Made by a program: the position numbers and the translations under genes
From: an uncultured Clostridia bacterium
GTDB taxonomy: Bacteria > Bacillota > Clostridia > UMGS1840
Assembly: GCA_938044725.1 (NCBI GenBank)
Contig: CALIOW010000091.1
Span: 1-40,785, forward strand
Direction: 5' to 3'
DNA length: 40,785 nt
In this document: one piece after another, positions 7,101 through 40,785 of the stretch
Numbering within the stretch: position 1 is the stretch's first letter
Layout of the letters: each line of letters starts with the position of its first letter
The notes under the pieces: generated by a model
What the model was told of the DNA's origin: nothing
The model's input: only the letters and a program-made list of their open reading frames with translations
Database searches by the model: none

Positions 7101-7116
7101 AATAGGGAGTGATAAA

Positions 7117-8325: not shown

Positions 8326-8327
8326 AC

Positions 8328-9532: not shown

Positions 9533-9536
9533 TATA

Positions 9537-11129: not shown

Positions 11130-11133
11130 AATG

Positions 11134-11210: not shown

Positions 11211-11225
11211 AAACAACACTAATGT

Positions 11226-11254
11226 ATTATACACTAATATTTTGATTTTGTCAA
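11226..11254 (-). promoter_or_regulatory. Promoter of tRNA-Pro: TTGACA, 17 bp spacer, TATAAT
   Basis: On the minus strand there is an exact TTGACA (11254-11249), a 17-nt spacer and an exact TATAAT (11231-11226). The -10 ends about 15 nt upstream of the mature tRNA 5' end. Confidence 0.7.
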
Positions 11255-11296
11255 TACATTTTTATGAAAAATAATAGATTAAATTTCCAAAAACAG

Positions 11297-11325
11297 TTTA
11301 CAAATTTTTAAAAATATGGTATAAT
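11297..11325 (+). promoter_or_regulatory. Promoter of the metallophosphoesterase pair: TTTACA, 17 bp spacer, TGgTATAAT
   Basis: TTTACA at 11297-11302, a 17-nt spacer ending in TGg, and TATAAT at 11320-11325. It lies 30 nt upstream of the CDS start. Confidence 0.6.
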
Positions 11326-11355
11326 GTGAAAAATATTAAATTGGAGCGGATTATT

Positions 11356-12324: not shown

Positions 12325-12337
12325 GAGGATTGATGCC

Positions 12338-13315: not shown

Positions 13316-13338
13316 AAACGGGGCAAAAGCCCCGTTTT
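13316..13338. terminator. Bidirectional terminator between convergent genes
   Basis: AAAACGGGGC-AAAA-GCCCCGTTTT is a perfect GC-rich stem flanked by an A-run and a T-run. It sits between the stop of CDS 12338..13315 and the stop of the minus-strand kinase. Confidence 0.8.
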
Positions 13339-15073
13339 AAATTGGAAATTTCATATTTACCGTAAGCCCTTTTTTGGGGAGACTGTTTTGGACGGTTATT
13401 CCGCACGGACGTCCGTACATCAGCACAATTCTTGCATTAATATTGTTAAGCCCTATGTGTGTTTCGGGAATATCCGTATCTTTTTTGAAAAGCGCATTCA
13501 GCTCATCGGTGGTTTTTTGCGTTATTTCGGAGCAGTTATCGCATACCGAAATAACAAAATATTTTCCCGCGGGGTGTGCCGATATTGTTATTTCGGGCGT
13601 ACCCTCCGCCGTGCTTATTCCGTATTTGAAGCAGTTTTCCAAAACAGGCTGAATACACATTTTTGTAACCTGCTTGCCGTAAAGACTGCCGTCAATATCC
13701 CATGCAACCTTAAACGTATCGCCGTTTCTTGCGCGCATTATTTTCAAATATTCTTCCGTCATGCTTTTTTCTTCCGAAAGCGTTACTGTCATGGTTTCGG
13801 TTTTCAGATAGTATCTCATAAGCTTTGAAAGCGAGAGTATTGCCGACGAAAACAGCTGTTTATCCGCCTTTTTGTCAAGCGACATCATGTAAAGCATATT
13901 GAGTGTGTTAAATATAAAATGCGGATTCATTTGCCATTGCAGCGCCTTAAGCTGTGCATATTCAAAAATTTTCGTCTTTTTTTGAAGCTCGGATTTGAGC
14001 GTGTCGTTTGTCGTAACCATAGACAAAATACTCTGCGCAATTTTTCTTGTTGTTTCATCATTTTCAAGATAATTTTTTGAAATTTCTGAAGTAGGCTGCT
14101 CCAGAATTTCCGCAATTTCACGAATGGGGCGGTAGCTCGAATCGGTATACAGAAGAACCATAAATGCCGAAAATACAAGCACAGCCAAAACGCAGAAAAT
14201 CAGTATAAGATAAGTAAAAAAGTTTGTTCTCTTATAGTCGGGGAGTTCTTCGACAATACCGTACGAAAAATCACCGTATTGGGATTTCATGCTCGATACG
14301 GCATAATATTTACCCTTGTTTTTTATTACATCGCTTTTATTGGGCGATTTATTGAGAAGCGACATAAGCTCAGCCGATGAAAGCTCCGTATCGCTTTGAT
14401 ATTCGATTTTATTTGTTTTGTTATTGAAAAAGATAATTTTGTCCGTACCCTCATTTTTGTAAAGACTTAAATGCTGCGCCAAATCTATATTTATAACGCC
14501 TGTAATATTTCTTTCGCCTGTGTTTATTGTGTATGTGAAGCTTAAAACATTACCGTAGCTCGGCATAAATCTCGAAAAAACGCATACCTTGCCGTCAGAG
14601 CCTTGGAAATTTTCATCATCGAGCCAGCCGAGGTCTTCAAAAGACGCAACACTTGTTGTACCGTTCGTTGTGATGATATAATCCCGATACGGGCTGTAAA
14701 GATATATTGAATTAACGGAATTTACCAAAGATGTGCCGATATTAAGCGTTTCCTTAAGCTCGGTAAGCTTTTTTAAAAGAAATTCTTCATTTAGACTTTT
14801 TTTTGAAAACATCGTGGCATTTCCCGAGATTATGATTTTACCGAGCTGAACATAGTAGGTGGAAAAAAATTCTTCACTTAAATTATGAATATTCTGTATG
14901 CTTTTGTCAACATTTTCAATCGATTTATCACGCTGATTTTTAAGATTGCTCCAGCCGATTAAAACCATAAGAAAAATGATAACTACAAGAAAGCACCCCG
15001 TTATAAGAAGTGCGTTTTTAAAGAAAAAATATCCGTTTTTCTTAATTTCTTTTATGCTGAACTTTATATCCAT
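13337..15073 (-). CDS. Sensor histidine kinase, YesM/LytS type (two TM segments with a large extracellular sensor domain)
   Basis: An N-terminal TM segment (LLITGCFLVVIIFLMVLIGW) and a second TM segment (FTYLILIFCVLAVLVFSAFMVLL) bracket about 240 aa. H-box QMNPHFIFNTLN. ATPase region ENCFKYG...HIGLNNINARI. Confidence 0.85.
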   Translation of the reverse strand: MDIKFSIKEIKKNGYFFFKNALLITGCFLVVIIFLMVLIGWSNLKNQRDKSIENVDKSIQNIHNLSEEFFSTYYVQLGKIIISGNATMFSKKSLNEEFLLKKLTELKETLNIGTSLVNSVNSIYLYSPYRDYIITTNGTTSVASFEDLGWLDDENFQGSDGKVCVFSRFMPSYGNVLSFTYTINTGERNITGVINIDLAQHLSLYKNEGTDKIIFFNNKTNKIEYQSDTELSSAELMSLLNKSPNKSDVIKNKGKYYAVSSMKSQYGDFSYGIVEELPDYKRTNFFTYLILIFCVLAVLVFSAFMVLLYTDSSYRPIREIAEILEQPTSEISKNYLENDETTRKIAQSILSMVTTNDTLKSELQKKTKIFEYAQLKALQWQMNPHFIFNTLNMLYMMSLDKKADKQLFSSAILSLSKLMRYYLKTETMTVTLSEEKSMTEEYLKIMRARNGDTFKVAWDIDGSLYGKQVTKMCIQPVLENCFKYGISTAEGTPEITISAHPAGKYFVISVCDNCSEITQKTTDELNALFKKDTDIPETHIGLNNINARIVLMYGRPCGITVQNSLPKKGLTVNMKFPI

Positions 15074-15075
15074 AG

Positions 15076-16467
15076 CTATTCTTCAACTTTCTTTCCGAGT
15101 ACGTTTTGAATATAATCTTTAGGCGTATATCCCGTATAAAGCTTAAATACTCTGAAAAAATATTTTGTGTTTTCGTAGCCGACTTTTTCGGCAATTTCAT
15201 ATATTTTATATTTGTTTTCCTTAAGCATTTCCTTTGCCTTTTCCATTCGCACCTCCAAAAGATAATCGTTATACGTTTTTCCCGTATATTGTTTGAAATT
15301 CCTTGCGAAGTATGCAGGGGAGAAAAAGACCACACGTGCTGCATCCTCTCTGGAAATGTTTTTGTTGTAATTCTTTTTGATGTACGAAACAGCCTTTTCC
15401 ATAATATCCTTTTTACTGTTTGAACCGCTTTGAATATTGTTTATTATATCAGAAAGAATATCCTCCTCCGAAACATCAAAACTGCCGCCGTAATTAAGAA
15501 GCTTAAAATAAGCAAGCGCATTGTCATTGCCCGACATTTTCACGCTTTTTATAATTCGCTTTGCTTCATCATATTTCTTTTCCGAAATGTAAGATGAGGT
15601 TATGAGAGCCTTTTCTTTAACATTAACCTCTTTGTTTTTACTTCCGATAAGCTCATACAAATCGGAAAATCCCGAATCCTTCCGCAAAACCTTAATCGGA
15701 AGCTTTAAAATATTGTTTATCCTGTCCGCAATGTTGTCATAATTTATTTTTTCATCATTCGTTCTGAAAATCAGATATTCAAAAAAACCGTTTTCTTTTC
15801 TTATGCAGTAAATATAGGCGGAATCGATAAATCCCGAAACGAGGTTGTCAATCGCCGTGTTAAGAGAATCCTTTGTATAGCCCCACTTTTTACCCAAAAA
15901 ATCGTCATAGCCCTCCAGAGATAGCTCTATAATATCGCATGGGGTTTTATCGAGCGGAAAGGGGATATGGAGCGATAGAGCGCTTTTTTCCGTTTCTTCC
16001 TTGCTTTCGGCATCACCGTAAACAAGGTTCAAAAAGAATTCTTCGATTTCCGCAGATTCGTTTCCGATAAACTGCGGACGTTTTATATGCTTTGCGTCAA
16101 GCTCTCTTAAAAAGTCCATAATAAGTTCGTCAAGCACGGAAAAATCAAACGGCTTAACAAAATATTGCCTGATTCCGGCTTCAATACCTCGTTTTGCGTA
16201 TTCAAATTCCTCATATCCGCTAATCAGAACGGATATGATTCCGAGATTATGCTTTTTTATATATTCCACAAGTTCAACACCCGAAACAAACGGCATTCTT
16301 ATATCGGTTATAAGTATGTCCGCACCTTTTTTCTTTATAATATCGAGTGCGTCTTTTCCGTCCGAAACCTCTATTATTTTCAAAATTCCATTGAATTTTT
16401 CTCTAAGGTGATTGCATAAAAAGCTTCTGGAATATTCTTCATCTTCCGCAGCAAGTAGTTTGTACAT
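15076..16467 (-). CDS. Response regulator with C-terminal AraC-type HTH (YesN-like)
   Basis: The receiver domain shows LLAAEDEE, ILITDIRMPFVSG and FVKPF. The C-terminal AraC HTH shows FSPAYFARNFKQYTGKTYNDYL...IAEKVGYENTKYFFRVFKLYTGYTPKDY. Its stop lies 2 nt before the kinase start. Confidence 0.85.
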   Translation of the reverse strand: MYKLLAAEDEEYSRSFLCNHLREKFNGILKIIEVSDGKDALDIIKKKGADILITDIRMPFVSGVELVEYIKKHNLGIISVLISGYEEFEYAKRGIEAGIRQYFVKPFDFSVLDELIMDFLRELDAKHIKRPQFIGNESAEIEEFFLNLVYGDAESKEETEKSALSLHIPFPLDKTPCDIIELSLEGYDDFLGKKWGYTKDSLNTAIDNLVSGFIDSAYIYCIRKENGFFEYLIFRTNDEKINYDNIADRINNILKLPIKVLRKDSGFSDLYELIGSKNKEVNVKEKALITSSYISEKKYDEAKRIIKSVKMSGNDNALAYFKLLNYGGSFDVSEEDILSDIINNIQSGSNSKKDIMEKAVSYIKKNYNKNISREDAARVVFFSPAYFARNFKQYTGKTYNDYLLEVRMEKAKEMLKENKYKIYEIAEKVGYENTKYFFRVFKLYTGYTPKDYIQNVLGKKVEE

Positions 16468-16498
16468 AACAAAACCTCATTTTTTCTTTCTTATTTAT

Positions 16499-16527
16499 AT
16501 TATACTGTATATTGTCAAATATTTCAA
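16499..16527 (-). promoter_or_regulatory. Putative promoter of the regulator-kinase operon: TTGAAA, 17 bp spacer, TATAAT
   Basis: The minus strand reads TTGAAA-tatttgacaatatacag-TATAAT. The -10 ends 32 nt upstream of the ATG, and a GAGG RBS lies between them. Confidence 0.45.
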
Positions 16528-16633
16528 GTATAATTTTGACGAAAAAGTATAATTTTAATACTTTTTTTATGAAATAAACGGAACAACTTACAAAACTTTA
16601 CTGTCTCTTTTGTATACGATTTCATTAAAGTTG

Positions 16634-16659
16634 TACCAAAAGTATACCAAAGTACCAAA
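16634..16659 (+). promoter_or_regulatory. Triple TACCAAA direct repeat, candidate operator for the AraC-type regulator
   Basis: TACCAAA occurs at 16634, 16645 and 16653, immediately upstream of the putative -35 of the ABC operon promoter. Confidence 0.3.
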
Positions 16660-16666
16660 TTTGAAC

Positions 16667-16695
16667 TTGTTATTTTAATGCTTTTGTGCTAAAAT
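16667..16695 (+). promoter_or_regulatory. Putative promoter of the ABC / surface-protein operon: TTGTTA, 17 bp spacer, TGcTAAAAT
   Basis: A -35-like TTGTTA, a 17-nt spacer ending in TGc, and a -10 TAAAAT. It lies 31 nt upstream of the ATG at 16726. Confidence 0.45.
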
Positions 16696-16725
16696 TATAT
16701 TATAAAGACAAAGGAGAGAGACAAA

Positions 16726-17661
16726 ATGAATGTTTTTAAGAAAAATGCGAAAAATCGAATATCGGGTAACATTAAGGATAACTGGCAGCTTTTTATACTC
16801 CAGCTTCCCGCGCTCGTTTTATTTTTTGTTTTTTGCTACATACCTATGTACGGTGTAATTATCGCCTTTAAGGAATTTAATTCCAATAAAGGTATCTGGG
16901 CAAGCCCGTGGGTCGGACTGAGGAATTTTAAATTCTTCTTCGCTTCACAGGACGCCGCAAGGCTTATAAGAAATACGGTTTTGTATAACCTCTGGTTTTT
17001 GCTTATCGGAACTTTTTTTGCGGTTTTGGTAGCGCTTATGCTCTACAACTTAAGAAGACGCTATTTGGTAAAAACTTATAATACAATAATGATTTTACCG
17101 AAATTTATGTCGATAGTCCTCATTTCATTTATAGTATACGCTCTTTTGAATCCGAGCAGCGGTATCGTAAACAATATGCTTATTTCTATGGGTAAAGAAC
17201 CTATCGACTGGTATTCAAAGCCCGAAGCATGGCCCGGAATACTTACTATTGTTCATCTGTGGCAGAATACGGGCTGGAGCTCTATTATATATTATGCGGC
17301 TCTTATGGGAATAAACCCCGAGCTTTTCGAGGCGGCGGAAATAGACGGAGCTTCCAAATATCTCCAAACGGTAAAAATCGCCGTTCCCGAAATAATGTCT
17401 TTGATAACCATTCAGGTGATTCTTGCATTGGGAAGCACATTTCAGGGAGATTTCGGACTTTTCTATCAGGTTCCCCGTAATGTTGCAACGCTGTACCCAA
17501 CAACGGATATTATTAATACATATACCTTCCGTGCACTTATGTCGGCTTCGATGTCAAAGTCGGCGGCTGTCGGTCTTATGCAGTCTGTTGTCGGAATAGT
17601 ACTGATTGTTTCCGTCAACCTGATTGTTAAGAAATTGAGCCCCGAAAACAGCTTATTCTAA
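16726..17661 (+). CDS. Carbohydrate ABC transporter permease (LplB / MalF-like)
   Basis: AAGGAGAG RBS. Six predicted TM segments. EAA loop FEAAEIDGASKYLQTVKIAVPEI. Confidence 0.85.
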   Translation: MNVFKKNAKNRISGNIKDNWQLFILQLPALVLFFVFCYIPMYGVIIAFKEFNSNKGIWASPWVGLRNFKFFFASQDAARLIRNTVLYNLWFLLIGTFFAVLVALMLYNLRRRYLVKTYNTIMILPKFMSIVLISFIVYALLNPSSGIVNNMLISMGKEPIDWYSKPEAWPGILTIVHLWQNTGWSSIIYYAALMGINPELFEAAEIDGASKYLQTVKIAVPEIMSLITIQVILALGSTFQGDFGLFYQVPRNVATLYPTTDIINTYTFRALMSASMSKSAAVGLMQSVVGIVLIVSVNLIVKKLSPENSLF

Positions 17662-17683
17662 AATAGAGAAAGAAGGTATAGAT

Positions 17684-18568
17684 ATGAAAAAGAAAAAGAA
17701 AATTTCGGCAGGACAGATTGTATTAAATGTAATATTCATTATTGTCAGTCTTTCCTTTATAATACCGCTCATACTTATGATTTCAATTTCGATTTCTTCG
17801 GAAGACGCTATAACGCAGTATGGCTATACGATACTTCCGAAGTCAATCGGATGGGACGGCTACAAAGCCGTGTTCAAAAATCCGAAACAGCTTCTTGACG
17901 CTTATAAAGTAACGATAATCTTTTCCGTTGTTGCGACATTTCTCTCCGTGCTTGTAAAAGCGCTTGCGGCATATCCGCTTTCGCGCCCCATATATAAGCT
18001 CAAAAAAGCAACAACAATGATGATGTTCTTTACAATGCTGTTTTCGGGCGGCTTGGTACCGTCATACATACTCAATACAAAATATCTTCATCTTGATAAT
18101 ACGATTTGGATTTATATTTTGCCCGCTCTCGTTTCCGCATGGGATATCTTTATAATGAGAACGTTCTTTCAGGGGCTTCCCAACGGACTTGTCGAAGCGG
18201 CAAAGATTGACGGAGCGAGCGAATACAGAGTATTCTTTACGATTGTGCTTCCGCTTTCAACTCCCGTTTTGGCTTCCTTGGGCTTTATGTATCTGATAGG
18301 CAAATGGAACGACTGGAACACAGCTCTTATATATATAAGAGATACGGAGCTTTACAGCCTGCAGTATCTGCTCCAAAGAATTTTAAGAGAAGCGGAATTT
18401 ATCAACACAATGGCAAAGACGGGCGAAAGCGCGGTAGACTTCGTACCGCCGACGGAAACAATGCGTTATGCAATGGCGGTTTTGGCGGCAGGTCCTATGA
18501 TGTTCGTATTCCCGTTTTTCCAAAAATATTTTGCACAGGGTCTTACAATAGGCTCGGTTAAAGGGTAA
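17684..18568 (+). CDS. Carbohydrate ABC transporter permease (LplC / MalG-like)
   Basis: Multi-TM protein with EAA loop VEAAKIDGASEYRVFFTIVLPLS. It follows the first permease after 22 nt. Confidence 0.85.
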   Translation: MKKKKKISAGQIVLNVIFIIVSLSFIIPLILMISISISSEDAITQYGYTILPKSIGWDGYKAVFKNPKQLLDAYKVTIIFSVVATFLSVLVKALAAYPLSRPIYKLKKATTMMMFFTMLFSGGLVPSYILNTKYLHLDNTIWIYILPALVSAWDIFIMRTFFQGLPNGLVEAAKIDGASEYRVFFTIVLPLSTPVLASLGFMYLIGKWNDWNTALIYIRDTELYSLQYLLQRILREAEFINTMAKTGESAVDFVPPTETMRYAMAVLAAGPMMFVFPFFQKYFAQGLTIGSVKG

Positions 18569-18603
18569 AAAAATAATTTATATAAAAGAAAGGAAACAAA
18601 CTT

Positions 18604-20109: not shown

Positions 20110-20134
20110 ATTAATATAAAAAGGAGATTTTAAA

Positions 20135-23971: not shown

Positions 23972-23981
23972 TAAAAATTTT

Positions 23982-24013
23982 CATACGGCGGAGGGTTTTC
24001 CTCCGCCCGTATG
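23982..24013 (+). terminator. GC-rich hairpin between the two module proteins (weak terminator or mRNA-stability element)
   Basis: CATACGGCGGAGG-GTTTT-CCTCCGCCCGTATG, about 13 bp with one bulge. No U-tract follows (ACCCGAATTTG), so termination is probably partial at most. Confidence 0.35.
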
Positions 24014-24084
24014 ACCCGAATTTGAAAACAAAGGATTTTATCCTATTATATAGATAATCATAATAATATTACGGAGGAAAAACC

Positions 24085-28392: not shown

Positions 28393-28416
28393 TATCGGTA
28401 AAAGGAGAATAGATAA

Positions 28417-31284: not shown

Positions 31285-31300
31285 CACAGGAGGGAACGAT

Positions 31301-34300: not shown

Positions 34301-35563
34301 TTTATAAAACGTTCACCTTTCTTCGTCGAAGTTAATTTCTCCGTTCCCGATTTTCTCACAAATCCCAACGCTGAGTGGGATGCGGGAGGCGGAACGGTTA
34401 CATACGACGGAAATACCATGACATATTCATCGCCGCAGGGGATGAGAACGGACGGTATAGTGAAAACAGGAACGTATAACGATATTCTTTGCTTCCAGGC
34501 GAAATTCGATAAGCTTATAGACGGCGGCGGATATCAGGGTATCGACTACAAAATGGAGGAAAACACAGCAAACAGCTATCTGTTTATTTTGAAGGAAAAT
34601 GTATTTGAATTCCAAAAGGAGGGTAAATTCTTCCTTGAGCTTCCGTCCTTTAAGGTAAAGGCGGGCGAATGGATAGACTGCATGATGGGCGCTGTAAATA
34701 CCCCCGGCGGCGTATTGCAGTTTGTAAGCCTTGACGGAAACGTTGTTTTTGCTGCGCTCGACCAAACGCCTACGCAGGTTAAGACGGGCGGACGTTTCAG
34801 AATACGTAAGAACGGCGAAAACGATATTCATTTGCGCCCAATGGAGAAAATTCCCGAAAAGCATGCGCTTATAGAGGATATTTACAATTCGTTTTCCAAT
34901 CCGTATGATGAAACTCATCTTGCCGTACTCTTAACGGGTGCGTTTAATGCGATAGATATGGATAATTCAAACTTTGCTTCTCTTGATAAGAAAAAGCTTT
35001 CCGAAAAGCTTTATCCGCTTCTTAAAGAGAACGGAATAAAGATAAAAGGCACAGACTATTCGGAATATAAAAATGTCGTTTCCGATATGGCAATTTTGGA
35101 ATACTATAATCAAGGAAAGGCAGACGCACTTTTCAAAAACAATGTTGTACTTCGTCATAACGATATAACGCAGTTTGAGAAAATAGACCAAAACGGTGTA
35201 AATTTGTATGCTTTTTCACAGGAGAAATTTAAGGACACCGACTACAACAAGGTAAATCAAGCTACGATGAACGGCGACTGCAAGACCTTTGACGAGTTAA
35301 GACTCAGGTATGCGAAGAATATATTTGCACACAGCATAAACGCTTGCTCAAACGGCTGGGGTGCGGACGCAACATATATGTTTGATATTATAACAAAGGC
35401 GAACTGCGATTATTTGGGAATAAATATTGACGATTACTTCGCACTATCCGACGTGGATAAAGTTTCAATTCATAATATCCTCGGACGAAGCGGCGTAAGC
35501 TTGGACAGAACGCTTGATGAAATTGTCGAAGAAATCCATACGTCAATAAAAGAACTGAAATAA
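31301..35563 (+). CDS. Secreted 1420-aa beta-helix protein with an N-terminal copper-amine-oxidase-N-like domain, an FN3-like domain and a ConA/LamG-like domain
   Basis: Signal MKKLLLSIICFTLCLTFLALPVCA. Cu_amine_oxidN1-like stretch (ALLLPARWFFQKQGYEV...GGNLYIPSDICDVLGL). Beta-helix signatures PGEWYVDRDTNMLYFYPP, HDGGAIYFGKS...FNYIHHL and LYNDDAYAWANWHHNVV. FN3-like RFSWEALECATEYKLVVATD...YYWKVYAIG. Confidence 0.85.
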   Translation: MKKLLLSIICFTLCLTFLALPVCAQREDIGAVPSNYQMVLMENSMIGIYSGELEKLNCSPIAAEGALLLPARWFFQKQGYEVSYSDGVCTFAKDGKSVGATQGSAEITVDGTAHTLKAPVQNIGGNLYIPSDICDVLGLNYKHGANGLFVIYTGEYKTASDRTLIKLQGVYMSPEGAVTSEGTPNKPINNLPAAVETAKNNMLMFGSEYPVYIFVKGGEYKVTATTTLDKNVFGKAEYKGLIIVGYDGEAVFTGATEINAEDFKPVTDADTLSRLPKAGRGKVAYLDLSTQGISGLSKSDESYPYVYVNDKQQLMSRWPNDDFTKVSSVPVNGEFCYEEANPSRWTRANDLRINGYFVADYFYNSTRTGGVDAKSKRIKTLDVSFQSHRAGSRWYGCNLLEEIDVPGEWYVDRDTNMLYFYPPYTLKGAKVEVCTFHSGNFLNATGVKNLTVDGITVTKLGKNAIVGNDMENVTVKNCNFTFLQGTYNIAGERCKNITVDGNYSYNCGGGFVSVRTGDMAAMEYGNFKFTNNRIVAGGFVPTNISGAFNAGYNNNDWVGTMGADISNNIIQDCNGSYAVSYVGLDNKVHHNEIINQAKNIHDGGAIYFGKSTSYNGTEISFNYIHHLNRENFYCGLYNDDAYAWANWHHNVVYNANRSTIIGLGFGMKYQYNLAIDTVNPATVGSRMTWTKDEKQQGEVVRAAANEKWVAKWPWLKTAATRDPFLAPWDSYVFGNIGIGAPATAGTVDELSKYGAKTIERNGKEYNIEGKNSTKEGNPSYAYDENLFEDPKTQNWNLKPESDIAKEWPEFLDIKMEEIGLSEGYDNLKHIDDTFKLRYPYNGQTNVQTKEVRFSWEALECATEYKLVVATDPELQNVVFEKTLRENSDNNSYTTDSLLNDTVYYWKVYAIGLARQDMFEQGSVGAPYAFKTARENELDKDSVKVAYEALIALDKEIKESDCEYTDEFMKNLEELVTRATDLYKNSKSQSELDALEEEIYNFIKRSPFFVEVNFSVPDFLTNPNAEWDAGGGTVTYDGNTMTYSSPQGMRTDGIVKTGTYNDILCFQAKFDKLIDGGGYQGIDYKMEENTANSYLFILKENVFEFQKEGKFFLELPSFKVKAGEWIDCMMGAVNTPGGVLQFVSLDGNVVFAALDQTPTQVKTGGRFRIRKNGENDIHLRPMEKIPEKHALIEDIYNSFSNPYDETHLAVLLTGAFNAIDMDNSNFASLDKKKLSEKLYPLLKENGIKIKGTDYSEYKNVVSDMAILEYYNQGKADALFKNNVVLRHNDITQFEKIDQNGVNLYAFSQEKFKDTDYNKVNQATMNGDCKTFDELRLRYAKNIFAHSINACSNGWGADATYMFDIITKANCDYLGINIDDYFALSDVDKVSIHNILGRSGVSLDRTLDEIVEEIHTSIKELK

Positions 35564-35585
35564 ATAATAAATAAGGAGAAGTAAA

Positions 35586-38500
35586 ATGAGTAAGACTATA
35601 AGGCTTGCGGCAGTTTTATTGGCTGCTGTTATGATTTTGGGAGGCGGATTTAACTGCTTTGCACAGTCTGAAACGCTTAATATTTATGTTTCGGCAAACG
35701 GAAACGATGAAACGGGCGATGGGACACAGTCGTCTCCGTTTGCAACGCTCGGCAAAGCAAGGGATTATATCAGAACGCTTTCAAAGGATTCCGGTATTAC
35801 GGTAAATATCGGAGCAGGCGAATATTATGTTAATTCGTCCGTTTCGTTTTCCTCGCAGGACAGCGGCAATGAAAATTGCATTGTTACATATAAAGCCGAT
35901 GACGGCGCAGTTTTCAAAAATACAAAGAAGATAAATACAGACGAATTTAAGAAAGTTACAAGCCCCGAAATCTTAAAAAGGCTGAAAAAAGAAGTAAGGG
36001 GAGAGGCATATTATTTAGACCTCGGTTCATATTGTATCCCAACAGTAAAAACAGCTTTTATTTTGGACGGAGAAAAATTTGAATTTTCAAGATATCCCAA
36101 GGACAGCCTTTTAAAAGCTGCAAACGATGCGTCGGATAAAACCTTCAGCGTTTCCGACAGCAGAGTAAACGAATGGGCAAAGTCGGAAGATATGTTTGTA
36201 AAGGGTTCGCTTTCTTCAACGTATTCATGGGAAAAAGCAGACGTTTCCGATATTTCGGGCGGCTCTGTAACAGTATCTCGAAATGTCATAAACGATGCGG
36301 AAATATACTTTAATAACGTGCTTGAAGAAATGAGCGCTGTGGGCGAATATGTTATCGATACAAAAAACAAGGTAATGTATTGCATACTTCCCGAAGACTA
36401 TAAAGGAAAAACCGCTGAAATTACTGCAGGTTCTCTGAATTCTCCTTTTATAAATTTAAACGGAGCCGAGTATATTAAATTTGACGGTCTTAATTTTTAC
36501 GGATTAAGCAATAATGCGGTTTATATGACAAACTGCAAAAACATCAGCGTAGAAAACTGCTCGTTTAATTTTATTAATGCAGACTATGCGATAAGAATTG
36601 TAACGGGCAAAAATATAAACGTATACTCAAACGGCGCTTATAAATGTTCGGGAGGTTTTGTGAGGTTTTCGGGCGGAAACAGAGTAACGCTTGAAAGCGG
36701 AAATATAAATATAGAGAAAAACGTAATATTAAACTGCGCAACCGACCTTAATTCCTGTATTATAAGTTCGGGAGTAAATTCACCTACCGATACGGTTGAC
36801 GCAATCGGAAATACGGTAAAAAATAATATAATAGGCGACAGCTCTCCCACAAATGCAATTTCCGCCGTGGGCATATATAACAAAGTATCAAACAACGAAA
36901 TATATAATGTTTCGCGCCAAATCGATGACGGCGGAGCAATATATTACGGAAGAAGCAACACGAAATACGGAAACGATATATCGTATAACTATATTCATCA
37001 TTTGAATAAGGCACATATGTTTTCCGCACTTTATGCCGACGACGGATACGGCGGAATCAATATGCACCATAACGTTATGTACAGTATGTCTCACCCCATA
37101 CATATCGGAATGGGCATGAACAATAAGTTTGATAACAATATGTATATAGATGTGGACAAAGGAATACGCGCACAGACAAGAATGACATGGGGAGACGCAT
37201 ACGCCAACTTCGGAGATTTGTATCAGGAGACATACAATCTGATGGAAAAAACGATTATGAAGGAGCTTTATGCCGCCGCCTTTCCCGATTTAAAGGTTTC
37301 GGTAACAAGAAAACCGTTCTTTGCACCGTATAATTCGCAGATAACAGGCAACGTTTCTTTCGGAAACGTAAATGCGCTTTATGAAGTACCCACACATTTG
37401 TATTATTCGGACGAGACGGCACAAATTCTTACCATATCGGACGAGGCAAATGTTGCGGGTATAGAAAATGCACTTGCGACAAATGCTAATAACAGAACAT
37501 ATGTAAACGAGCTTAAAGCGTACGGTGCAAAGGTAACGGCGTCGGACGGAACAGATTTAAATGCAACTGCGGACGGAAATCCACGTTTTGATTATGATAG
37601 CGCATATTTTAAAAATGCGTCTGCACAAGATTTTACACTTACAAGCGCATTTTCTTCTTCGGTATCAACTGTAAATGAAATAAATATGTCTGAAATAGGA
37701 AATATAACGGCAAGCGAAAACAAGCTTTTAACACCTGCCGAAAAAATAAATATTTATGCAGTGCAAAACGGCAAAAAGATTGATATAACGTACGGAACCA
37801 ATCCGTCCGTGTCGCAGTACAGAATACTTGTGTCTGCGGACAGCGGTTTTTCAAACACGGTTTTCGATAAGACGGTATATGAGGATAACATGACGTTTGC
37901 GTTAGAAACCGATGAACTTCCGTACGGTACATATTATATAAAAGCAATAGGTACGGGACTTTCAAAACAAAGCCAATTTACGGTGCAGTCTGACGTGATA
38001 ACATTCACTCATGAGGATAAAACGGAAAAAGCCTATAAAAATGCGCTTTCACTTTTGGAAGATGAAATCAAAAAGGCACAGAGCGGAGATTATGTATACA
38101 GCGATGAAAGCATAATAACGGAGCTGGAAGCAAAGAAAGCATATCTTACCGAAAATGCGCAGAGCATATCAAAATCGGATGAAGAAACGGCAATATACGA
38201 CCTTCTTATAAGGGCACAGGCGGAAAGAAATACGCTAAAACCCGAAATCAATAAATGTACGGCGGACACCTCCGACAGCAACGTTTATGTTGAGGCAAGC
38301 GGTTTTCATGCAAATTCGCTTGTAACCGTTCTTGTTACAAATCCGAATACGGATAAAAATACCTTTGCAAACGGAAATAAGGATATTGTAAGATATACAA
38401 ATGTTTTGAGTGCAGACCATAACGGCTGTGTGTCATTTGATTTTGATACAAAAATAAACGATATAGACTATTTGGGAACATACACAGTTTATCTTGCCGA

Positions 38501-38888
38501 TGCAAACGGAAGAATAATTTCTCAAACATATGATTACGGTACGGTTGAAACCTCTGCGGTAACATTCTATAAGGATTCCGCCGAAATTTCGGCAGAAGAG
38601 CTCTCGGCGCACAAGGGAGAAACGCTTACGGCAAAATTAAACGTGAATAACCGTATAAGCATAGATACGAATGCTTATGCTTCAATAGGCTCGTATAAAT
38701 CGGGAAAGCTTATAGATGTTACTTTTGATAAGGTAACGCTTCTTAAAAACAGCGTAAACGAAGTAACAATAAGCTTCAAAGTGCCTGATGATTTTGACGA
38801 AAATACGACCGCCGAATTTATGCTTTTGGACGGAAAAACAGTTTTAAAACCGCTTTCGCTAAAGCGTATAATAAAAGAAATAGAGTAG
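35586..38888 (+). CDS. Secreted 1100-aa beta-helix protein (paralogue of CDS 31301) with FN3-like and Ig-like C-terminal domains
   Basis: Signal MSKTIRLAAVLLAAVMILGGGFNCFA. DUF1565-like start NGNDETGDGTQSSPFATLGKARDYI. Signatures VGEYVIDTKNKVMYCILP, DDGGAIYYGRSNTKYGNDISYNYIHHL and LYADDGYGGINMHHNVM. It carries the C-terminal domain shared with CDS 1..4122 and CDS 20135. Confidence 0.85.
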   Translation: MSKTIRLAAVLLAAVMILGGGFNCFAQSETLNIYVSANGNDETGDGTQSSPFATLGKARDYIRTLSKDSGITVNIGAGEYYVNSSVSFSSQDSGNENCIVTYKADDGAVFKNTKKINTDEFKKVTSPEILKRLKKEVRGEAYYLDLGSYCIPTVKTAFILDGEKFEFSRYPKDSLLKAANDASDKTFSVSDSRVNEWAKSEDMFVKGSLSSTYSWEKADVSDISGGSVTVSRNVINDAEIYFNNVLEEMSAVGEYVIDTKNKVMYCILPEDYKGKTAEITAGSLNSPFINLNGAEYIKFDGLNFYGLSNNAVYMTNCKNISVENCSFNFINADYAIRIVTGKNINVYSNGAYKCSGGFVRFSGGNRVTLESGNINIEKNVILNCATDLNSCIISSGVNSPTDTVDAIGNTVKNNIIGDSSPTNAISAVGIYNKVSNNEIYNVSRQIDDGGAIYYGRSNTKYGNDISYNYIHHLNKAHMFSALYADDGYGGINMHHNVMYSMSHPIHIGMGMNNKFDNNMYIDVDKGIRAQTRMTWGDAYANFGDLYQETYNLMEKTIMKELYAAAFPDLKVSVTRKPFFAPYNSQITGNVSFGNVNALYEVPTHLYYSDETAQILTISDEANVAGIENALATNANNRTYVNELKAYGAKVTASDGTDLNATADGNPRFDYDSAYFKNASAQDFTLTSAFSSSVSTVNEINMSEIGNITASENKLLTPAEKINIYAVQNGKKIDITYGTNPSVSQYRILVSADSGFSNTVFDKTVYEDNMTFALETDELPYGTYYIKAIGTGLSKQSQFTVQSDVITFTHEDKTEKAYKNALSLLEDEIKKAQSGDYVYSDESIITELEAKKAYLTENAQSISKSDEETAIYDLLIRAQAERNTLKPEINKCTADTSDSNVYVEASGFHANSLVTVLVTNPNTDKNTFANGNKDIVRYTNVLSADHNGCVSFDFDTKINDIDYLGTYTVYLADANGRIISQTYDYGTVETSAVTFYKDSAEISAEELSAHKGETLTAKLNVNNRISIDTNAYASIGSYKSGKLIDVTFDKVTLLKNSVNEVTISFKVPDDFDENTTAEFMLLDGKTVLKPLSLKRIIKEIE

Positions 38889-38900
38889 GAGATTAAAAAA

Positions 38901-39464
38901 ATGTTTAAGAAGATAGGGGCAGTGTCCCAAAGAAAGATTTATGTCGGATTCAATGAAAAAAATGAAAAATGCTTTCCGATTGAGGTAGACGGCTATAAGG
39001 TTTTGGACGGCTTTAAGACAGAAGCGCTTTCAAATTTTTGCGTAACCGAAAGCGGAAATTACATAGGAGGGTATTTTGTTGACGTATGCTCCGACAATAT
39101 GCCGTTTCCCGCTGTGGGATTTTTCTTAAAAGCAAACGGAAAAATACTTTTAAACGGCGAAGCGCTTACGGAAAACAAAAGAGTGAAAATTACACAAAGT
39201 GATGAAGCGATAATTACGGGCGAGGATTATAACTGCTGTTTTTACCCAATAATCGAGGATAAAAACGATTACTTTTTAGAATATGATAAAGACGAAAATT
39301 CAGTCGGTATCATAAGCGTACATAACGGAAGCTGTGAAAACGATACAAGGGTAATTTTAAAATTCGGCTGTGCTTTTTCGCAAGGCTTTGAATTTATTAA
39401 GGACAATGCCGAGGTGAAATTTTACCCCAAATGTTCAATAAAAAGAATAATAGGAGATGAATAA
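38901..39464 (+). CDS. Hypothetical 187-aa cytoplasmic Cys-rich protein
   Basis: AGGAG RBS 7 nt upstream of the ATG. No signal peptide or TM segment. Nine Cys residues. Its stop lies 1 nt before the next start. No family recognised. Confidence 0.6.
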   Translation: MFKKIGAVSQRKIYVGFNEKNEKCFPIEVDGYKVLDGFKTEALSNFCVTESGNYIGGYFVDVCSDNMPFPAVGFFLKANGKILLNGEALTENKRVKITQSDEAIITGEDYNCCFYPIIEDKNDYFLEYDKDENSVGIISVHNGSCENDTRVILKFGCAFSQGFEFIKDNAEVKFYPKCSIKRIIGDE

Positions 39465-39465
39465 C

Positions 39466-40785
39466 ATGAATTTGGAAATTTCAGTATCAAAAAATGACGG
39501 TCTTGCCGATGTTAAAACGCTTGCGCAGGCTATAAAAATTGCAAACGAAAAACGAAACGACTATGATGAAATTGTTATTAATATTGCAGAGGGCGAGTAT
39601 TTTCAAAATGAAACCTTGGAGCTTACCGAAAAAGAATTAAAAAGCGGCAGAGCAAAGATAATATTCAAAGGAAACGGCGATAAAAAAACAATAATTTCAG
39701 GCGGTATAGAGCTTTCTCCGTTTGATTTCAAAATCGCGGAAAATGACCGTATCAGACCTGATATGAAAGGAAAAATTTTATCGCTCGACTTGAAAAAATA
39801 CGGAATAACCGAAGTCGGTAAGCCTTTCACAAGAGATTCGTGGTATGATATGATTCCGTCGCAGTGTGAGCTTTTTGTTGATGACTGCGAGGCGCAAATT
39901 ACATCATTTCCGAAAAACAGAAACCGCATTAAGATTAATAAAGAAGATATTTTAAGGACTGTACAGCCTTTAGAGCCGTACCCTGCGCCGTATGACCCCA
40001 AGCCCGATATATCGGATAAATGCGCTGTTATAAAATATAATTTTTTTGAAGCCGATAAGTGGAGTAAGGCGCACGACGCATATCTTTTCGGATTTCCCAA
40101 CGCAGGCTTTTTCTCGTTCAGTGTTCCCGTGGATATAGATACAAAAGAAAAGACCATTTCTTTAAAAGAACGTGTCGGGGTAGGAAGTAATTCGTATTTT
40201 AATACATACTGTATACGTAACCTGCTTGAAGAACTGACGGAAAAAGGGGAATATTATATTGATTCCGATGAGTTAATTCTTTATTATTACCCGAAAACAA
40301 AGCTTACAAAGGACTCCAAAATCCGCCTGTCAAGCTTGAAAGAACCGCTTATTGCCTGCGAAAATATTTTTAATGTAAAATTTGAAAATATAGTTTTTGA
40401 GTGCACAAGAGGTATGGGCGTTTACATGGAGGACACAAAGCATGTTGAATTTTCAGACTGTACATTCAGAAATATAGGACTTGTTGCCGTTTCGTTTGGG
40501 CTCGGCTTTGAAACAACAATAAATATCCCCAAGGAAACAATGCACGTAAAGGACTATACCGATTTGCCTTTCAAAAAACGTGCAATAGGAAATATAAAAA
40601 CGCAAATGCATAACGACCCGATGTCGCAGAGAAACGGCGGCTATGACAATCTTATCCGCGACTGCGAAATTTATAATATCGGCTGCGGAGGAATAATTCT
40701 CGACGGCGGCGACCGCATGAATTTATTAAGAGGGAACAACAGAATCGTGGGATGCGATATTCATGATTTCAACCGTCTTGAAGAA
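39466..40785 (+). CDS. Beta-helix paralogue without a signal peptide (cytoplasmic), 3' end cut by the window edge; absent from the supplied ORF track
   Basis: GGAG at 39453-39456 precedes the ATG at 39466. My hand translation gives 440 codons with no stop through nt 40785. MNLEISVSKNDGLADVKTLAQAIKIANE...INIAEGEYF parallels the mature N-termini of CDS 35586 and CDS 31301. KGEYYIDSDELILYYYP matches their GEWY.D...LY..P motif. Beta-helix rungs are visible (FENIVFECTRGMGVYM, FSDCTFRNIGLVAV, IRDCEIYNIGCGGIIL). Confidence 0.8.
   Translation, partial: MNLEISVSKNDGLADVKTLAQAIKIANEKRNDYDEIVINIAEGEYFQNETLELTEKELKSGRAKIIFKGNGDKKTIISGGIELSPFDFKIAENDRIRPDMKGKILSLDLKKYGITEVGKPFTRDSWYDMIPSQCELFVDDCEAQITSFPKNRNRIKINKEDILRTVQPLEPYPAPYDPKPDISDKCAVIKYNFFEADKWSKAHDAYLFGFPNAGFFSFSVPVDIDTKEKTISLKERVGVGSNSYFNTYCIRNLLEELTEKGEYYIDSDELILYYYPKTKLTKDSKIRLSSLKEPLIACENIFNVKFENIVFECTRGMGVYMEDTKHVEFSDCTFRNIGLVAVSFGLGFETTINIPKETMHVKDYTDLPFKKRAIGNIKTQMHNDPMSQRNGGYDNLIRDCEIYNIGCGGIILDGGDRMNLLRGNNRIVGCDIHDFNRLEE

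What the first reader, a model, noticed from the sequence alone, without database searches (positions are those of the whole stretch)
13337..40785. 27-kb locus coupling a YesMN-type sensor and LplABC-type importer to five giant secreted or SLH-anchored proteins: candidate undescribed Gram-positive surface glycan-capture machine
From 16726 to the window end every gene is on the + strand. Intergenic gaps are 1-35 nt, apart from one 113-nt gap that holds a U-tract-less hairpin. The order is two permeases, a lipoprotein binder, then proteins of 1278, 1435, 955, 1420 and 1100 aa with Sec signals, then two cytoplasmic proteins. A divergent AraC-type response regulator and histidine kinase sit upstream.

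Two of the giants carry SLH domains, which would attach them to the cell wall. Two are non-catalytic-looking repeat proteins. Two are beta-helix proteins.

All classical glycosidases in the window (GH38, GH-A, GH43) lack signal peptides. The extracellular steps would therefore rest entirely on proteins I cannot assign to a characterised family. The layout resembles a functional analogue of a Bacteroidetes PUL outer-membrane complex, built on an S-layer anchor instead.
Basis: partly seen in the sequence, partly recalled or inferred. Interest (0 to 1): 0.8.

Follow-up and report, generated by a model that had tools for sequence, protein, structure and literature searches.

The report
Gut Clostridia surface glycan-degrading gene cassette
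An uncultured human-gut Clostridia bacterium carries a sugar-uptake operon built around a rare, conserved set of five giant cell-surface proteins: two are distant relatives of GH141 glycosidases and three belong to protein families nobody has described, so it looks like a new version of the known way Gram-positive bacteria digest polysaccharides at their surface.

Summary
**Observation:** confirmed.

**Interpretation:** partly supported.
- **β-helix giants.** G4 and G5 are not unassignable. They are distant GH141 homologues: a cassette-only profile matches BT_1002 at E=4.5e-15 and PDB 9rx2 at 3e-33. Both catalytic Asp residues are conserved.
- **More paralogues.** The truncated last gene and the protein cut by the left window edge belong to the same family.
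- **G1.** It consists of four ~290-aa modules, each a jelly-roll β-sandwich plus a three-helix bundle (AF2 pLDDT 85.5). Pfam, NCBIfam and PDB sequences do not cover it. G2 carries two of these modules.
- **G3.** Its fold stays unresolved.
- **Synteny.** The order G1-G2-G3-G4(-G5) recurs in at least seven lineages of uncultured gut Oscillospiraceae/Clostridia at 24–59% identity. It sits next to different uptake and regulator genes: TCS+ABC, AraC+GH95, or MFS plus an SLH esterase.
- **Hairpin.** A hairpin after G1 is kept in five lineages with unrelated stem sequences.

**Best reading:** a Gram-positive polysaccharide-utilisation locus with a surface cassette of separate anchors, binders and enzymes. 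Substrate and assembly are unknown.

**Novelty:** new variant of a known kind. **Interest:** 0.5.

The parts
13337..15073 (-). Sensor histidine kinase, YesM-like (578 aa)
   Evidence: Pfam PF06580 His_kinase at E=1.2e-22 plus HATPase_c. It is conserved next to the operon in the conspecific contigs L004 and L005.
15076..16467 (-). Response regulator with an AraC-type HTH, YesN-like (463 aa)
   Evidence: Pfam Response_reg plus HTH_18/HTH_AraC. NCBIfam gives AraC-family hits only.
16468..16725 (.). Divergent intergenic region with promoter-like sites on both strands
   Evidence: Consensus scan: + strand TTGTTA-17-TAAAAT with TG at 16667-16695; - strand TTGAAA-17-TATAAT at 16527-16499. These are consensus matches only. 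The total number of promoter-like sites in the region is not above the shuffled expectation.
16726..18568 (+). Two CUT1-type sugar ABC permeases (311 and 294 aa). No ATPase gene is in the locus.
   Evidence: Pfam BPD_transp_1 for both. NCBIfam similarity to MalF/MalG, UgpA/E and GlcT/U.
18604..20109 (+). LplA-type lipoprotein solute-binding protein (501 aa)
   Evidence: Pfam DUF3502 at E=1e-14 and a weak SBP_bac_1 hit. Lipobox LSMAG-C at residues 18-23.
20135..23971 (+). G1, a secreted protein of 1278 aa with no anchor domain. It has four tandem ~290-aa modules (aa 31-332, 333-623, 624-899, 901-1183), each a jelly-roll beta-sandwich plus a three-helix bundle, followed by a C-terminal beta domain of ~95 aa (aa 1182-1278).
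   Evidence: HMM of the repeats. AF2 model of module 2: pLDDT 85.5, pTM 0.85. Foldseek finds only generic jelly-rolls: AziU2/U3 at TMt 0.7, Cry domain III, ConA, CBM6/11/4. No Pfam, NCBIfam or PDB-sequence hit. The word-indexed search found 12 homologue clusters. The exhaustive HMM search found 537 representatives.
23981..24014 (+). GC-rich stem-loop directly after the G1 stop codon, with no U tract. A promoter-like TTGAAA-16-TATTAT follows at 24022-24049.
   Evidence: z=-3.05. A stem-loop at the same place with unrelated stem sequences is present in L006, L010, L012 and L016 (z -3.15 to -5.5).
24085..28392 (+). G2, 1435 aa. It has a signal peptide, two G1-type modules (aa ~67-254 and 437-703) with extra helical repeats, Ig-like domains, a helical domain shared with G4, and three C-terminal SLH domains.
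   Evidence: Pfam SLH at E=3.4e-35 with 3 stretches. Module HMM iE 3e-5 and 3.5e-4. G2 aa 1096-1196 resembles G4 aa 1277-1380, and the L006 G2-like protein matches G4 at E=1e-10.
28417..31284 (+). G3, 955 aa. It has a signal peptide, N-terminal SLH domains (aa ~30-205) and an all-beta region of ~750 aa whose fold is unknown.
   Evidence: Pfam SLH at E=3.1e-19. The non-SLH part has only 6 homologue clusters in 5.8 billion. The AF2 model is poor (pLDDT 59.7) and Foldseek gives nothing meaningful (TM<=0.10).
31301..35563 (+). G4, 1420 aa. It has a signal peptide, a Cu_amine_oxidN1 domain (aa 55-133), a GH141-like right-handed beta-helix catalytic region (aa ~170-700; putative catalytic Asp in HDGGAIY and YNDDA), beta-sandwich domains, and a C-terminal helical domain shared with G2.
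   Evidence: Pfam. PDB 9rx2 at E=1.4e-4 and BT_1002 at 0.27 as a single sequence. Profile hits. Catalytic motif alignment.
35586..38888 (+). G5, 1100 aa. It has a signal peptide, a GH141-like beta-helix (aa ~30-600; D448 and D485 align to BT_1002 D523 and D564), Ig/FN3-like domains, and a G1-type C-terminal beta domain (aa 999-1091).
   Evidence: PDB 9rx2 at E=7.6e-15. Paralogue of G4 at 29% identity over 896 aa. D448 is invariant in 20 of 20 sequences and D485 is kept in 15 of 20. C-terminal domain HMM iE 2.4e-4.
38901..39464 (+). c187, a 187-aa protein with no signal peptide and no detectable family. It is conserved downstream of G5 within this species group.
   Evidence: No Pfam, NCBIfam or PDB hit. 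Present in L001-L003 and L011.
39466..40785 (+). N-terminal 440 aa of a 678-aa cytoplasmic GH141-like beta-helix protein, cut by the window end. It is the last gene of the operon.
   Evidence: Weak Pfam Beta_helix, GH141_M and Pectinesterase hits. The full-length orthologue in L011 is 89% identical and keeps both Asp motifs (YDNGACY and IYLD). It matches G4 and G5 at E~1e-13. The strand switches after it in L011.
11326..13315 (+). Two paralogous metallophosphoesterases (332 and 325 aa, no signal peptide) that may be associated with the locus
   Evidence: Pfam Metallophos. They are 32% identical to each other. They sit next to the TCS in L004 and L005, and a homologue lies in the variant locus L012. 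The association is inferred only.
1..4122 (+). C-terminal >=1373 aa of a fourth GH141-like beta-helix giant, cut by the left window edge. It ends in the same G1-type C-terminal domain.
   Evidence: Frame 1 is open from base 1. Catalytic-region HMM E=2.9e-13 with the motifs NDMGVLY and YSDDG. C-terminal domain iE 6.8e-5.

Best explanation
**What it is.** This is a Gram-positive polysaccharide-utilisation locus of an uncultured human-gut Oscillospiraceae/Clostridia bacterium. Its core is a conserved five-gene cell-surface cassette.

**Shown**
- The genes form a tight same-strand block.
- G4 and G5 are secreted homologues of GH141 glycoside hydrolases with the catalytic Asp pair intact.
- G2 and G3 carry SLH wall-anchoring domains.
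- G1 and G2 carry arrays of a previously undescribed jelly-roll plus three-helix module.
- The cassette order is conserved across deep divergence.
- A sugar ABC importer, a two-component system and a cytoplasmic GH141-like paralogue flank the cassette.

**Inferred mechanism**
1. G2 and G3 are fixed to the secondary cell-wall polymer through their SLH domains and form a platform.
2. The jelly-roll modules of G1 (four) and G2 (two) act as carbohydrate-binding modules that capture a complex, probably plant-derived or fucose/xylose-containing, glycan.
3. G4 and G5 cleave the glycan close to the wall. G4 would be held by its Cu_amine_oxidN1 domain and the helical domain it shares with G2. G5 would be held by the C-terminal beta domain it shares with G1.
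4. The lipoprotein binding protein and the two permeases import the oligosaccharides, using an ATPase encoded elsewhere, as is usual for CUT1 systems in Firmicutes.
5. The 678-aa cytoplasmic beta-helix enzyme, possibly with c187 and the metallophosphoesterases, finishes the breakdown.
6. The YesM/YesN-like pair senses a product and induces the operon.
7. The conserved stem-loop after G1 most likely stabilises or partly terminates the upstream transcript, so that G1 and the transporter genes are expressed above G2-G5.
For: - **Gene map and domains:**
- **GH141 homology.** G5 matches 9rx2 at E=7.6e-15. The cassette-only profile matches 9rx2 at 3.3e-33 and BT_1002 at 4.5e-15. The broad profile matches BT_1002 at 2e-51 and GH120 at 7e-17.
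- **Catalytic residues.** BT_1002 D523 and D564 (PMC10154630) correspond to chain D528 and D569, which align to the family motifs DGGAIY and YxDD with the same 41-residue spacing. They are conserved in G4, G5, the left-edge protein and the cytoplasmic paralogue.
- **G1 module.** It is a confident jelly-roll plus three-helix bundle whose nearest folds include CBM6/11/4 and lectins.
- **Module fusions.** The module is fused to a beta-helix in L012. Across 40 relatives it co-occurs with SLH in 10, with a beta-helix in 1 and with GDSL/CE2 in 1.
- **Cassette synteny at 24-59% identity:** L006, L007, L008, L010, L015 and L016, plus the variant L012.
- **Variable partner genes.** TCS+ABC in the window; AraC+GH95 in L006; AraC in L016; an SLH-GDSL esterase plus MFS in L008 and L015. 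All are carbohydrate-uptake themes.
- **Shared domains among cassette proteins:**
- **Hairpin conserved in five lineages:**
- **Known precedent for the strategy:** PMC4765114.
Against: - No experimental data exist. Co-transcription, surface location, binding and activity are all inferred.
- Single-sequence similarity of G4 and G5 to BT_1002 is marginal or absent (E=0.27 for G4, none for G5). The Pfam GH141_M hit is below threshold (17.5 vs 27 bits). CAZy membership and substrate are therefore open.
- The best structural match of the G1 module is AziU2/U3, which is not a CBM, and the CBM matches have low TM scores.
- G3 has no interpretable fold.
- No cohesin/dockerin or other known docking pair was found, so complex formation is speculative.
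- The shared-domain E-values (1e-4 range) come from a tiny search space.
- The TCS and ABC genes are not conserved with the cassette in distant lineages.
Confidence: 0.6

Rival explanations
1. The cassette is mainly an adhesion or cell-envelope structure. G1, G2 and G3 would be S-layer-associated adhesins or structural proteins that attach the cell to particles or mucus. The beta-helix proteins would only trim the surface locally, and nutrient capture would not be the main role.
For: - G1, G2 and G3 have no catalytic signature.
- SLH anchoring, Ig-like domains and long repeat arrays are typical of adhesins.
- G3's fold is unknown.
- The TCS and ABC genes are not kept with the cassette in distant loci.
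Against: - The cassette always includes one or two GH141-like enzymes.
- It is always next to carbohydrate regulators, transporters or CAZymes: AraC, GH95, ABC, MFS, an SLH esterase.
- The module is fused to a beta-helix and to a CE2-type esterase in relatives.
- In the window it sits in one tight block with a sugar importer and a cytoplasmic paralogue.
Confidence: 0.15
2. The beta-helix proteins are depolymerases for bacterial polymers: the cell's own secondary cell-wall polymer or EPS, or the capsules of competitors. The locus would serve wall or EPS remodelling or recycling rather than use of dietary or host glycans.
For: - Right-handed beta-helices are the usual fold of capsule and EPS depolymerases and tailspikes. 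The profile also hits a tail spike at E=5.6e-4.
- SLH proteins bind pyruvylated wall polymers (established knowledge).
- The organism has at least four paralogues in 40 kb.
Against: - The closest characterised homologues are GH141 enzymes acting on plant RG-II, xylan and algal fucoidan (PMC10154630, PMC12786026).
- Neighbours include GH95, GH43 and GH38, and galK/galT lie about 5 kb downstream of the operon in L011.
- Inducible AraC-type regulation plus an importer fits foraging.
Confidence: 0.12
3. The clustering is incidental: unrelated large surface-protein genes that merely lie next to a sugar transporter, with no functional coupling.
For: - There are no expression data.
- A promoter-like site and a hairpin lie between G1 and G2.
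- The number of promoter-like sites is not above the shuffled expectation.
Against: - The same gene order is kept in at least seven lineages at 24-59% identity.
- Gaps are 1-35 nt.
- Domains are shared among cassette members.
- There is a fusion protein in L012.
Confidence: 0.03

Closest known systems
Paenibacillus sp. JDR-2 xylan, beta-glucan and starch utilisation systems (SLH-anchored multimodular GH, then ABC importer, then intracellular GHs; PMC4765114)
   Same: - Gram-positive.
- SLH anchoring at the wall.
- Carbohydrate-binding modules.
- Oligosaccharides are produced next to the cell and imported by a CUT1 ABC system, with regulation encoded next to it.
- Breakdown is finished by signal-peptide-less paralogues or other GHs (for the paradigm; for the window).
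   Different: - In JDR-2, one polypeptide carries CBMs, catalytic domain and SLH together. Here these functions are split over five proteins.
- The SLH domains are on two non-catalytic proteins.
- The enzymes are GH141-like, not GH10, GH16 or GH13.
- The putative binding modules belong to no described CBM family.
CAZy family GH141 (BT_1002 of B. thetaiotaomicron, Cthe_2195 xylanase, Wenyingzhuangia endo-fucanases) and PDB 9rx2
   Same: - Right-handed beta-helix catalytic domain.
- N-terminal cap motif.
- A trace of the inserted beta-sandwich (GH141_M).
- Both catalytic Asp positions.
   Different: - Only profile-level similarity to BT_1002.
- Closer to the uncharacterised 9rx2 clade.
- Much larger (1100-1420 aa), with Cu_amine_oxidN1, Ig/FN3-like, helical and G1-type C-terminal domains.
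- The substrate cannot be inferred, since known GH141 activities already span three unrelated glycans.
Cellulosome-type anchoring (SLH-bearing anchoring scaffoldins plus dockerin-bearing enzymes)
   Same: The logic is the same: non-catalytic SLH-anchored proteins are encoded next to secreted enzymes that lack their own wall anchor, and the cassette members share recurring small domains.
   Different: No cohesin or dockerin domain was detected in any cassette protein. The proposed docking domains are hypothetical.
Bacteroidota Sus-like PUL surface complexes (SusC/D plus SGBPs plus a surface GH)
   Same: Functional analogy only: binders, an endo-acting enzyme, a transporter and a sensor are encoded in one locus.
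   Different: - No SusC/SusD.
- No outer membrane.
- An ABC importer instead of a TonB-dependent transporter.
- A different sensor type.
SLH-domain CAZyme system of Monoglobus pectinilyticus (recalled from memory; the paper was not retrievable here)
   Same: A human-gut Clostridia specialist said to display SLH-linked carbohydrate-active proteins.
   Different: It could not be compared. No text or sequence was available. The GTDB scan with the G1 profile returned no genome titled Monoglobus.

Membership tests
CAZy GH141 | Catalytic right-handed parallel beta-helix homologous to BT_1002 | tested here: met
   The cassette-only profile A6 matches 5mqp (BT_1002) at E=4.5e-15. The broader profile A2 gives E=2e-51 over profile positions 28-520. 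Single sequences are marginal: G4 at E=0.27, G5 with no hit.
CAZy GH141 | Catalytic Asp pair (BT_1002 D523 nucleophile, D564 acid/base) | tested here: met
   The residues are named in PMC10154630. Chain residues D528 and D569 (offset 5, same 41-residue spacing) align to G5 D448 and D485. D448 is invariant in 20 of 20 and D485 is kept in 15 of 20. Both are present in G4, G5, the left-edge protein and the L011 orthologue of the last ORF.
CAZy GH141 | GH141 insertion beta-sandwich domain (Pfam PF21231) above its threshold | tested here: inconclusive
   G4 scores 17.5 bits against a cut-off of 27, and G5 has no hit. The relatives P0009 and P0012 pass at 27.1 and 37.6 bits.
CAZy GH141 | Assignment by CAZy/dbCAN family models, and demonstrated glycosidase activity | not testable with these tools
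   No dbCAN/CAZy library is available here, and no biochemistry.
Gram-positive PUL (gpPUL) | Co-localised regulator, carbohydrate transporter and at least one CAZyme | tested here: met
   TCS (HK plus REC-AraC), two permeases plus a binding protein, and GH141-like enzymes lie in one block.
SLH-anchored cell-wall proteins | Tandem SLH domains above the Pfam threshold, plus a signal peptide | tested here: met
   G2: 120 bits, 3 stretches. G3: 69 bits, 2 stretches. The cut-off is 20.8 bits. Both have Sec-like N-termini.
YesMN-type two-component system | PF06580 His_kinase sensor paired with a REC plus AraC-HTH regulator | tested here: met
   NCBIfam has no specific model for this pair.
LplABC / CUT1 ABC importer | Two MalF/MalG-like permeases plus a lipoprotein binding protein with a DUF3502 C-terminus | tested here: met
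   No ATPase gene is in the locus, which is usual for CUT1 systems of Firmicutes (established knowledge).
Described carbohydrate-binding module families | Sequence membership of the G1/G2 module in a known CBM or Pfam family | tested here: not met
   No Pfam or NCBIfam hit in G1 or in 40 relatives. The profile search against PDB sequences gave only chance motif hits. The fold is a generic jelly-roll with TM<=0.7. Binding itself cannot be tested here.
Cellulosome (cohesin-dockerin) | Cohesin and dockerin domains | tested here: not met
   None was detected in any cassette protein.
Bacteroidota Sus-like PUL | A SusC/SusD pair | tested here: not met
   No such genes are in the window. The resemblance is functional analogy only.

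The most novel reading that the evidence does not exclude
The five proteins would assemble into a new type of Gram-positive surface 'utilisome' that uses no cohesin or dockerin.
- G2 and G3 would be SLH-anchored scaffolds.
- They would hold the G1 binder array and the two GH141-like enzymes through the shared, undescribed domains: the three-helix bundles, the ~95-aa C-terminal beta domain of G1, G5 and the left-edge enzyme, and the helical domain of G2 and G4.
- The jelly-roll module would found a new CBM family.
- The beta-helix clade would have a specificity not yet seen in GH141.
- The conserved post-G1 hairpin would set subunit stoichiometry.
Probability: 0.3. Interest if true: 0.7.

Novelty: new variant of a known kind. 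Interest (0 to 1): 0.5.

Why it matters
Most mechanistic knowledge of glycan capture in the gut comes from Bacteroidota Sus-like systems. For Clostridia, which are abundant and often uncultured, only a few surface systems are understood: amylosomes, cellulosomes and SLH-anchored single enzymes.

This cassette adds four things:
1. A conserved multi-gene surface unit in which anchor, binder and enzyme are separate proteins.
2. Two protein families (G1/G2 module, G3) with no annotation in any library searched.
3. A deep GH141-related clade that lives on the Gram-positive surface and has a cytoplasmic paralogue.

If the binding and docking functions are confirmed, the cassette would yield a new CBM family, possibly new docking domains, and a tractable model for how uncultured Oscillospiraceae forage complex glycans.

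It is not a new category of system. The same overall strategy is already described for Paenibacillus.

Tried and rejected
- **G3 fold.** The AF2 model from a 6-sequence alignment was poor (pLDDT 59.7, pTM 0.40). Foldseek returned only DDB1-like propeller noise (TM<=0.10, prob<=0.2). I draw no conclusion from it.
- **G1 module against PDB sequences.** The profile search gave only 'YxDGT' strand-motif hits to Rib-type domains (E>=0.34). I rejected these as chance.
- **Literature.**
  - No paper mentions 9RX2.
  - Four attempts to retrieve the Monoglobus SLH work failed, so that lead is unverified.
  - A search for new beta-helix GH families found nothing closer than GH141.
- **Source names and taxonomy.** Cluster look-ups gave no names. 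The organism is known only through MAG titles ('uncultured Oscillospiraceae/Clostridia bacterium') and human-gut sample labels.
- **c187.** No Pfam, NCBIfam or PDB relative.
- **Promoter and terminator scan.** Counts are not above the shuffled expectation, so individual sites are only suggestive.
- **Substrate inference.** Neighbours include GH95, a weak GH127-like hit, GH43, GH38, GDSL esterases and metallophosphoesterases. This is suggestive of complex plant pectin or fucosylated glycans but too weak to commit to. Known GH141 activities already cover RG-II, xylan and fucoidan.
- **Cellulosome membership.** Considered and rejected: no cohesin or dockerin.
- **Phage or defence origin.** Considered and rejected: nothing supports it.

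Full report
**1. Observation**

The ORF map reproduces the finding exactly.
- A histidine kinase (13337-15073) and a response regulator (15076-16467) lie on the minus strand.
- From 16726 to the window end every gene is on the plus strand: permeases of 311 and 294 aa, a 501-aa binding protein, and proteins of 1278 (G1), 1435 (G2), 955 (G3), 1420 (G4) and 1100 aa (G5).
- After these come a 187-aa ORF and an ORF that runs off the window.
- The gaps are 22, 35, 25, 113, 24, 16, 22, 12 and 1 nt.

Pfam confirms the domain assignments:
- His_kinase (PF06580) plus HATPase in the kinase.
- REC plus AraC-HTH in the regulator.
- Two BPD_transp_1 permeases.
- A DUF3502 binding protein, which also has a lipobox.
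- Three SLH stretches at the C-terminus of G2 and SLH at the N-terminus of G3.

All five giants begin with a K/R-rich segment followed by 14-18 uncharged or hydrophobic residues. GH38, the GH-A protein, GH43, c187 and the last ORF do not. This is a heuristic, not SignalP.

The 113-nt gap contains a GC-rich stem-loop at 23981-24014 with no U tract after it (z=-3.05).

**2. The beta-helix giants are GH141 relatives**

G4 and G5 are paralogues, 29% identical over 896 aa. The evidence for GH141 homology is as follows.

| Query | Target | E-value |
|---|---|---|
| G5 alone | PDB 9rx2 ('Parallel beta-helix repeat protein') | 7.6e-15 |
| G4 alone | 9rx2 | 1.4e-4 |
| G4 alone | BT_1002 (GH141 founder) | 0.27 |
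| Cassette-only profile (G4, G5, close orthologues) | 9rx2 | 3.3e-33 |
| Cassette-only profile | BT_1002 | 4.5e-15 |
| Broader profile | 9rx2 | 7e-119 |
| Broader profile | BT_1002 | 2e-51 |
| Broader profile | GH120 xylosidase | 7e-17 |

- The literature names D523 and D564 as the catalytic residues of BT_1002 (PMC10154630).
- In the printed alignment these are chain residues D528 and D569: an offset of 5 with identical 41-residue spacing.
- They align to the family motifs 'DGGAIY' and 'YxDD'.
- G5 D448 is invariant in 20 of 20 family members and D485 is kept in 15 of 20. G4 has both.

Two further paralogues are present.
- **The truncated last ORF.** It is 678 aa in the orthologous contig L011, has no signal peptide and keeps both Asp motifs.
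- **The protein cut by the left window edge.** Frame 1 is open from base 1.

The extracellular catalytic step can therefore be assigned to a characterised superfamily. The substrate cannot be assigned, because known GH141 activities already span RG-II side chains, xylan and sulfated fucans. Pfam's GH141_M domain is below threshold in G4 and absent in G5. Strict CAZy membership stays open.

**3. The non-catalytic giants**

*G1*
- G1 consists of four tandem ~290-aa modules plus a C-terminal domain of ~95 aa.
- I built an alignment of 21 module copies, made of paralogous copies from G1, G2 and orthologues. It gave a confident AF2 model: pLDDT 85.5, pTM 0.85.
- The model is a beta-sandwich (residues 1-223) followed by a three-helix bundle.
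- Foldseek finds only generic jelly-rolls: AziU2/U3 at TMt 0.7, then Cry toxin domain III, ConA-type lectins and CBM6/CBM11/CBM4.
- No Pfam, NCBIfam or PDB-sequence relative exists.

*G2*
- G2 carries two weaker copies of the module.
- It also has extra helical repeats, Ig-like domains, a helical domain shared with the G4 C-terminus and the SLH triplet.

*The wider module family*
- The word-indexed search found only 12 G1-like clusters in 5.8 billion.
- The exhaustive HMM search found 537 representatives at E<=1e-3, of which about 50 have full tandem modules.
- Of 40 scanned, 10 carry SLH, one carries a beta-helix, one carries a GDSL/CE2 esterase, and the rest have nothing known.
- In L012 the module is fused to a beta-helix in one 1783-aa protein.
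- This is the distribution expected of an accessory, CBM-like module. Binding itself is untested.

*G3*
- Outside its SLH region G3 has six homologue clusters.
- Its AF2 model is poor and the fold search is uninformative.

*Shared C-terminal domain*
- The C-terminal beta domain of G1 recurs at the C-termini of G5 and of the left-edge enzyme.
- These are the three secreted proteins that have no SLH or Cu_amine_oxidN1 domain (iE 2e-4 to 7e-5 in a very small search space).

**4. Conservation**

Exact or near-exact copies of the locus occur in human-gut metagenome assemblies. The order G1-G2-G3-G4(-G5) recurs in independent lineages at 24-59% identity.

| Locus | What is next to the cassette |
|---|---|
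| L006 | AraC plus GH95 upstream; an extra 667-aa gene inside the cassette |
| L007 | An uncultured Oscillospiraceae MAG; the contig holds little beyond the cassette |
| L008, L015 | Followed by an SLH-GDSL esterase and an MFS transporter |
| L010 | A short contig holding only cassette genes |
| L016 | AraC upstream, in a housekeeping neighbourhood |
| L012 | A rearranged variant |

- Only three of about 186,000 GTDB species representatives matched the G1 profile patterns.
- The cassette is therefore a rare but real, portable unit that is plugged into different uptake and regulation modules.
- A strong stem-loop lies directly after the G1-type gene in five lineages. The stem sequences are unrelated and no U tract follows (z from -3.05 to -5.5).
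- This argues for a conserved role in transcript stability or partial termination.

**5. Mechanism**

The best-supported model has confidence 0.6.
1. G2 and G3 are anchored to the wall by their SLH domains.
2. The G1 and G2 jelly-roll arrays capture a complex glycan.
3. G4 and G5 cleave it at the surface.
4. The LplA-like lipoprotein and the CUT1 permeases import the products.
5. The cytoplasmic beta-helix paralogue completes hydrolysis.
6. The YesMN-like system induces the operon.

What is shown: the anatomy, the homology, the conserved catalytic residues, the synteny and the shared domains. What is inferred: binding, complex assembly, substrate, regulation and the role of the hairpin.

The rivals are an adhesin or envelope structure (0.15), a depolymerase system for bacterial polymers (0.12) and incidental clustering (0.03).

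**6. Comparison and novelty**

The closest described system is the Paenibacillus sp. JDR-2 strategy: an SLH-anchored multimodular GH, ABC import, then intracellular GHs (PMC4765114). The window differs in three ways.
- Anchor, binder and enzyme are split over five proteins, with the SLH domains on non-catalytic proteins.
- The enzymes are GH141-like.
- Three of the protein families are not covered by any library searched.

No cohesin/dockerin pair and no SusC/D pair is present, so resemblance to cellulosomes or to Bacteroidota PULs is analogy only. The Monoglobus lead could not be checked.

**Verdict.** This is a new variant of a known kind, with interest 0.5.

Noticed in passing
window 1-4122 (+): The window begins inside a fourth GH141-like beta-helix giant of at least 1373 aa. 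The ORF listing shows only an internal ATG at 364. The protein keeps both catalytic Asp motifs (NDMGVLY, YSDDG) and ends in the same ~95-aa C-terminal domain as G1 and G5.
   Followed up: partly
window 8382-8966 and 9014-9532 (+): Two short ORFs match the C-terminal part of a pyruvate-formate-lyase-like glycyl radical enzyme (PFL-like profile positions 397-587 of 647, then the Gly_radical domain). They look like remnants of a disrupted glycyl radical enzyme gene lying between the GH-A and GH43 genes.
   Followed up: no
window ~4455-11325 compared with L004 and L005 1-1200: Upstream of the two metallophosphoesterases, the window carries GH38, a GH-A protein, the GRE fragments and GH43. Conspecific contigs carry a LytTR response regulator there instead. 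This is a strain-level rearrangement or insertion at the locus border.
   Followed up: no
window 6988-8325 (+) overlapping 4455-7100: The 445-aa GH-A ORF, as listed, starts at a TTG 113 nt inside the GH38 gene. The real start is probably further downstream. It gets only sub-threshold Cellulase (GH5) and GH35 hits.
   Followed up: no
window 23981-24014; L006 ~7964-7991; L010 ~1393-1431; L012 ~12882-12908; L016 ~14647-14708: A strong GC-rich stem-loop lies immediately after the G1-type gene in five lineages. The stem sequences are unrelated and none is followed by a U tract. In the window a promoter-like TTGAAA-16-TATTAT follows at 24022-24049.
   Followed up: yes
window 39466-40785; L001, L002 and L003 ends: The window and three independent metagenome contigs all break off inside the last beta-helix gene, after 394 to 440 aa. 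This suggests a recurrent assembly break, for example a repeat shared with the paralogues or strain variation.
   Followed up: no
L011 18692-21362: Galactokinase and galactose-1-phosphate uridylyltransferase genes lie about 3 kb downstream of the operon end, after three reverse-strand genes: a sigma factor, a DUF4367 protein and a Cu_amine_oxidN1 protein. A serpin fused to Cu_amine_oxidN1 follows.
   Followed up: no
L012 12931-18282: A 1783-aa protein fuses a G4-like beta-helix (aa ~224-614) with G1-type modules (aa ~1160-1473). This is a Rosetta-stone link between the undescribed module and the GH141-like catalytic domain.
   Followed up: partly
one search hit P0010 (Paenibacillus macquariensis, 1273 aa): This cultured-organism relative of the beta-helix domain has precomputed Pfam hits to Cohesin (PF00963) and Big_2. 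In some lineages, therefore, this enzyme family may be linked to cohesin-type assembly.
   Followed up: no
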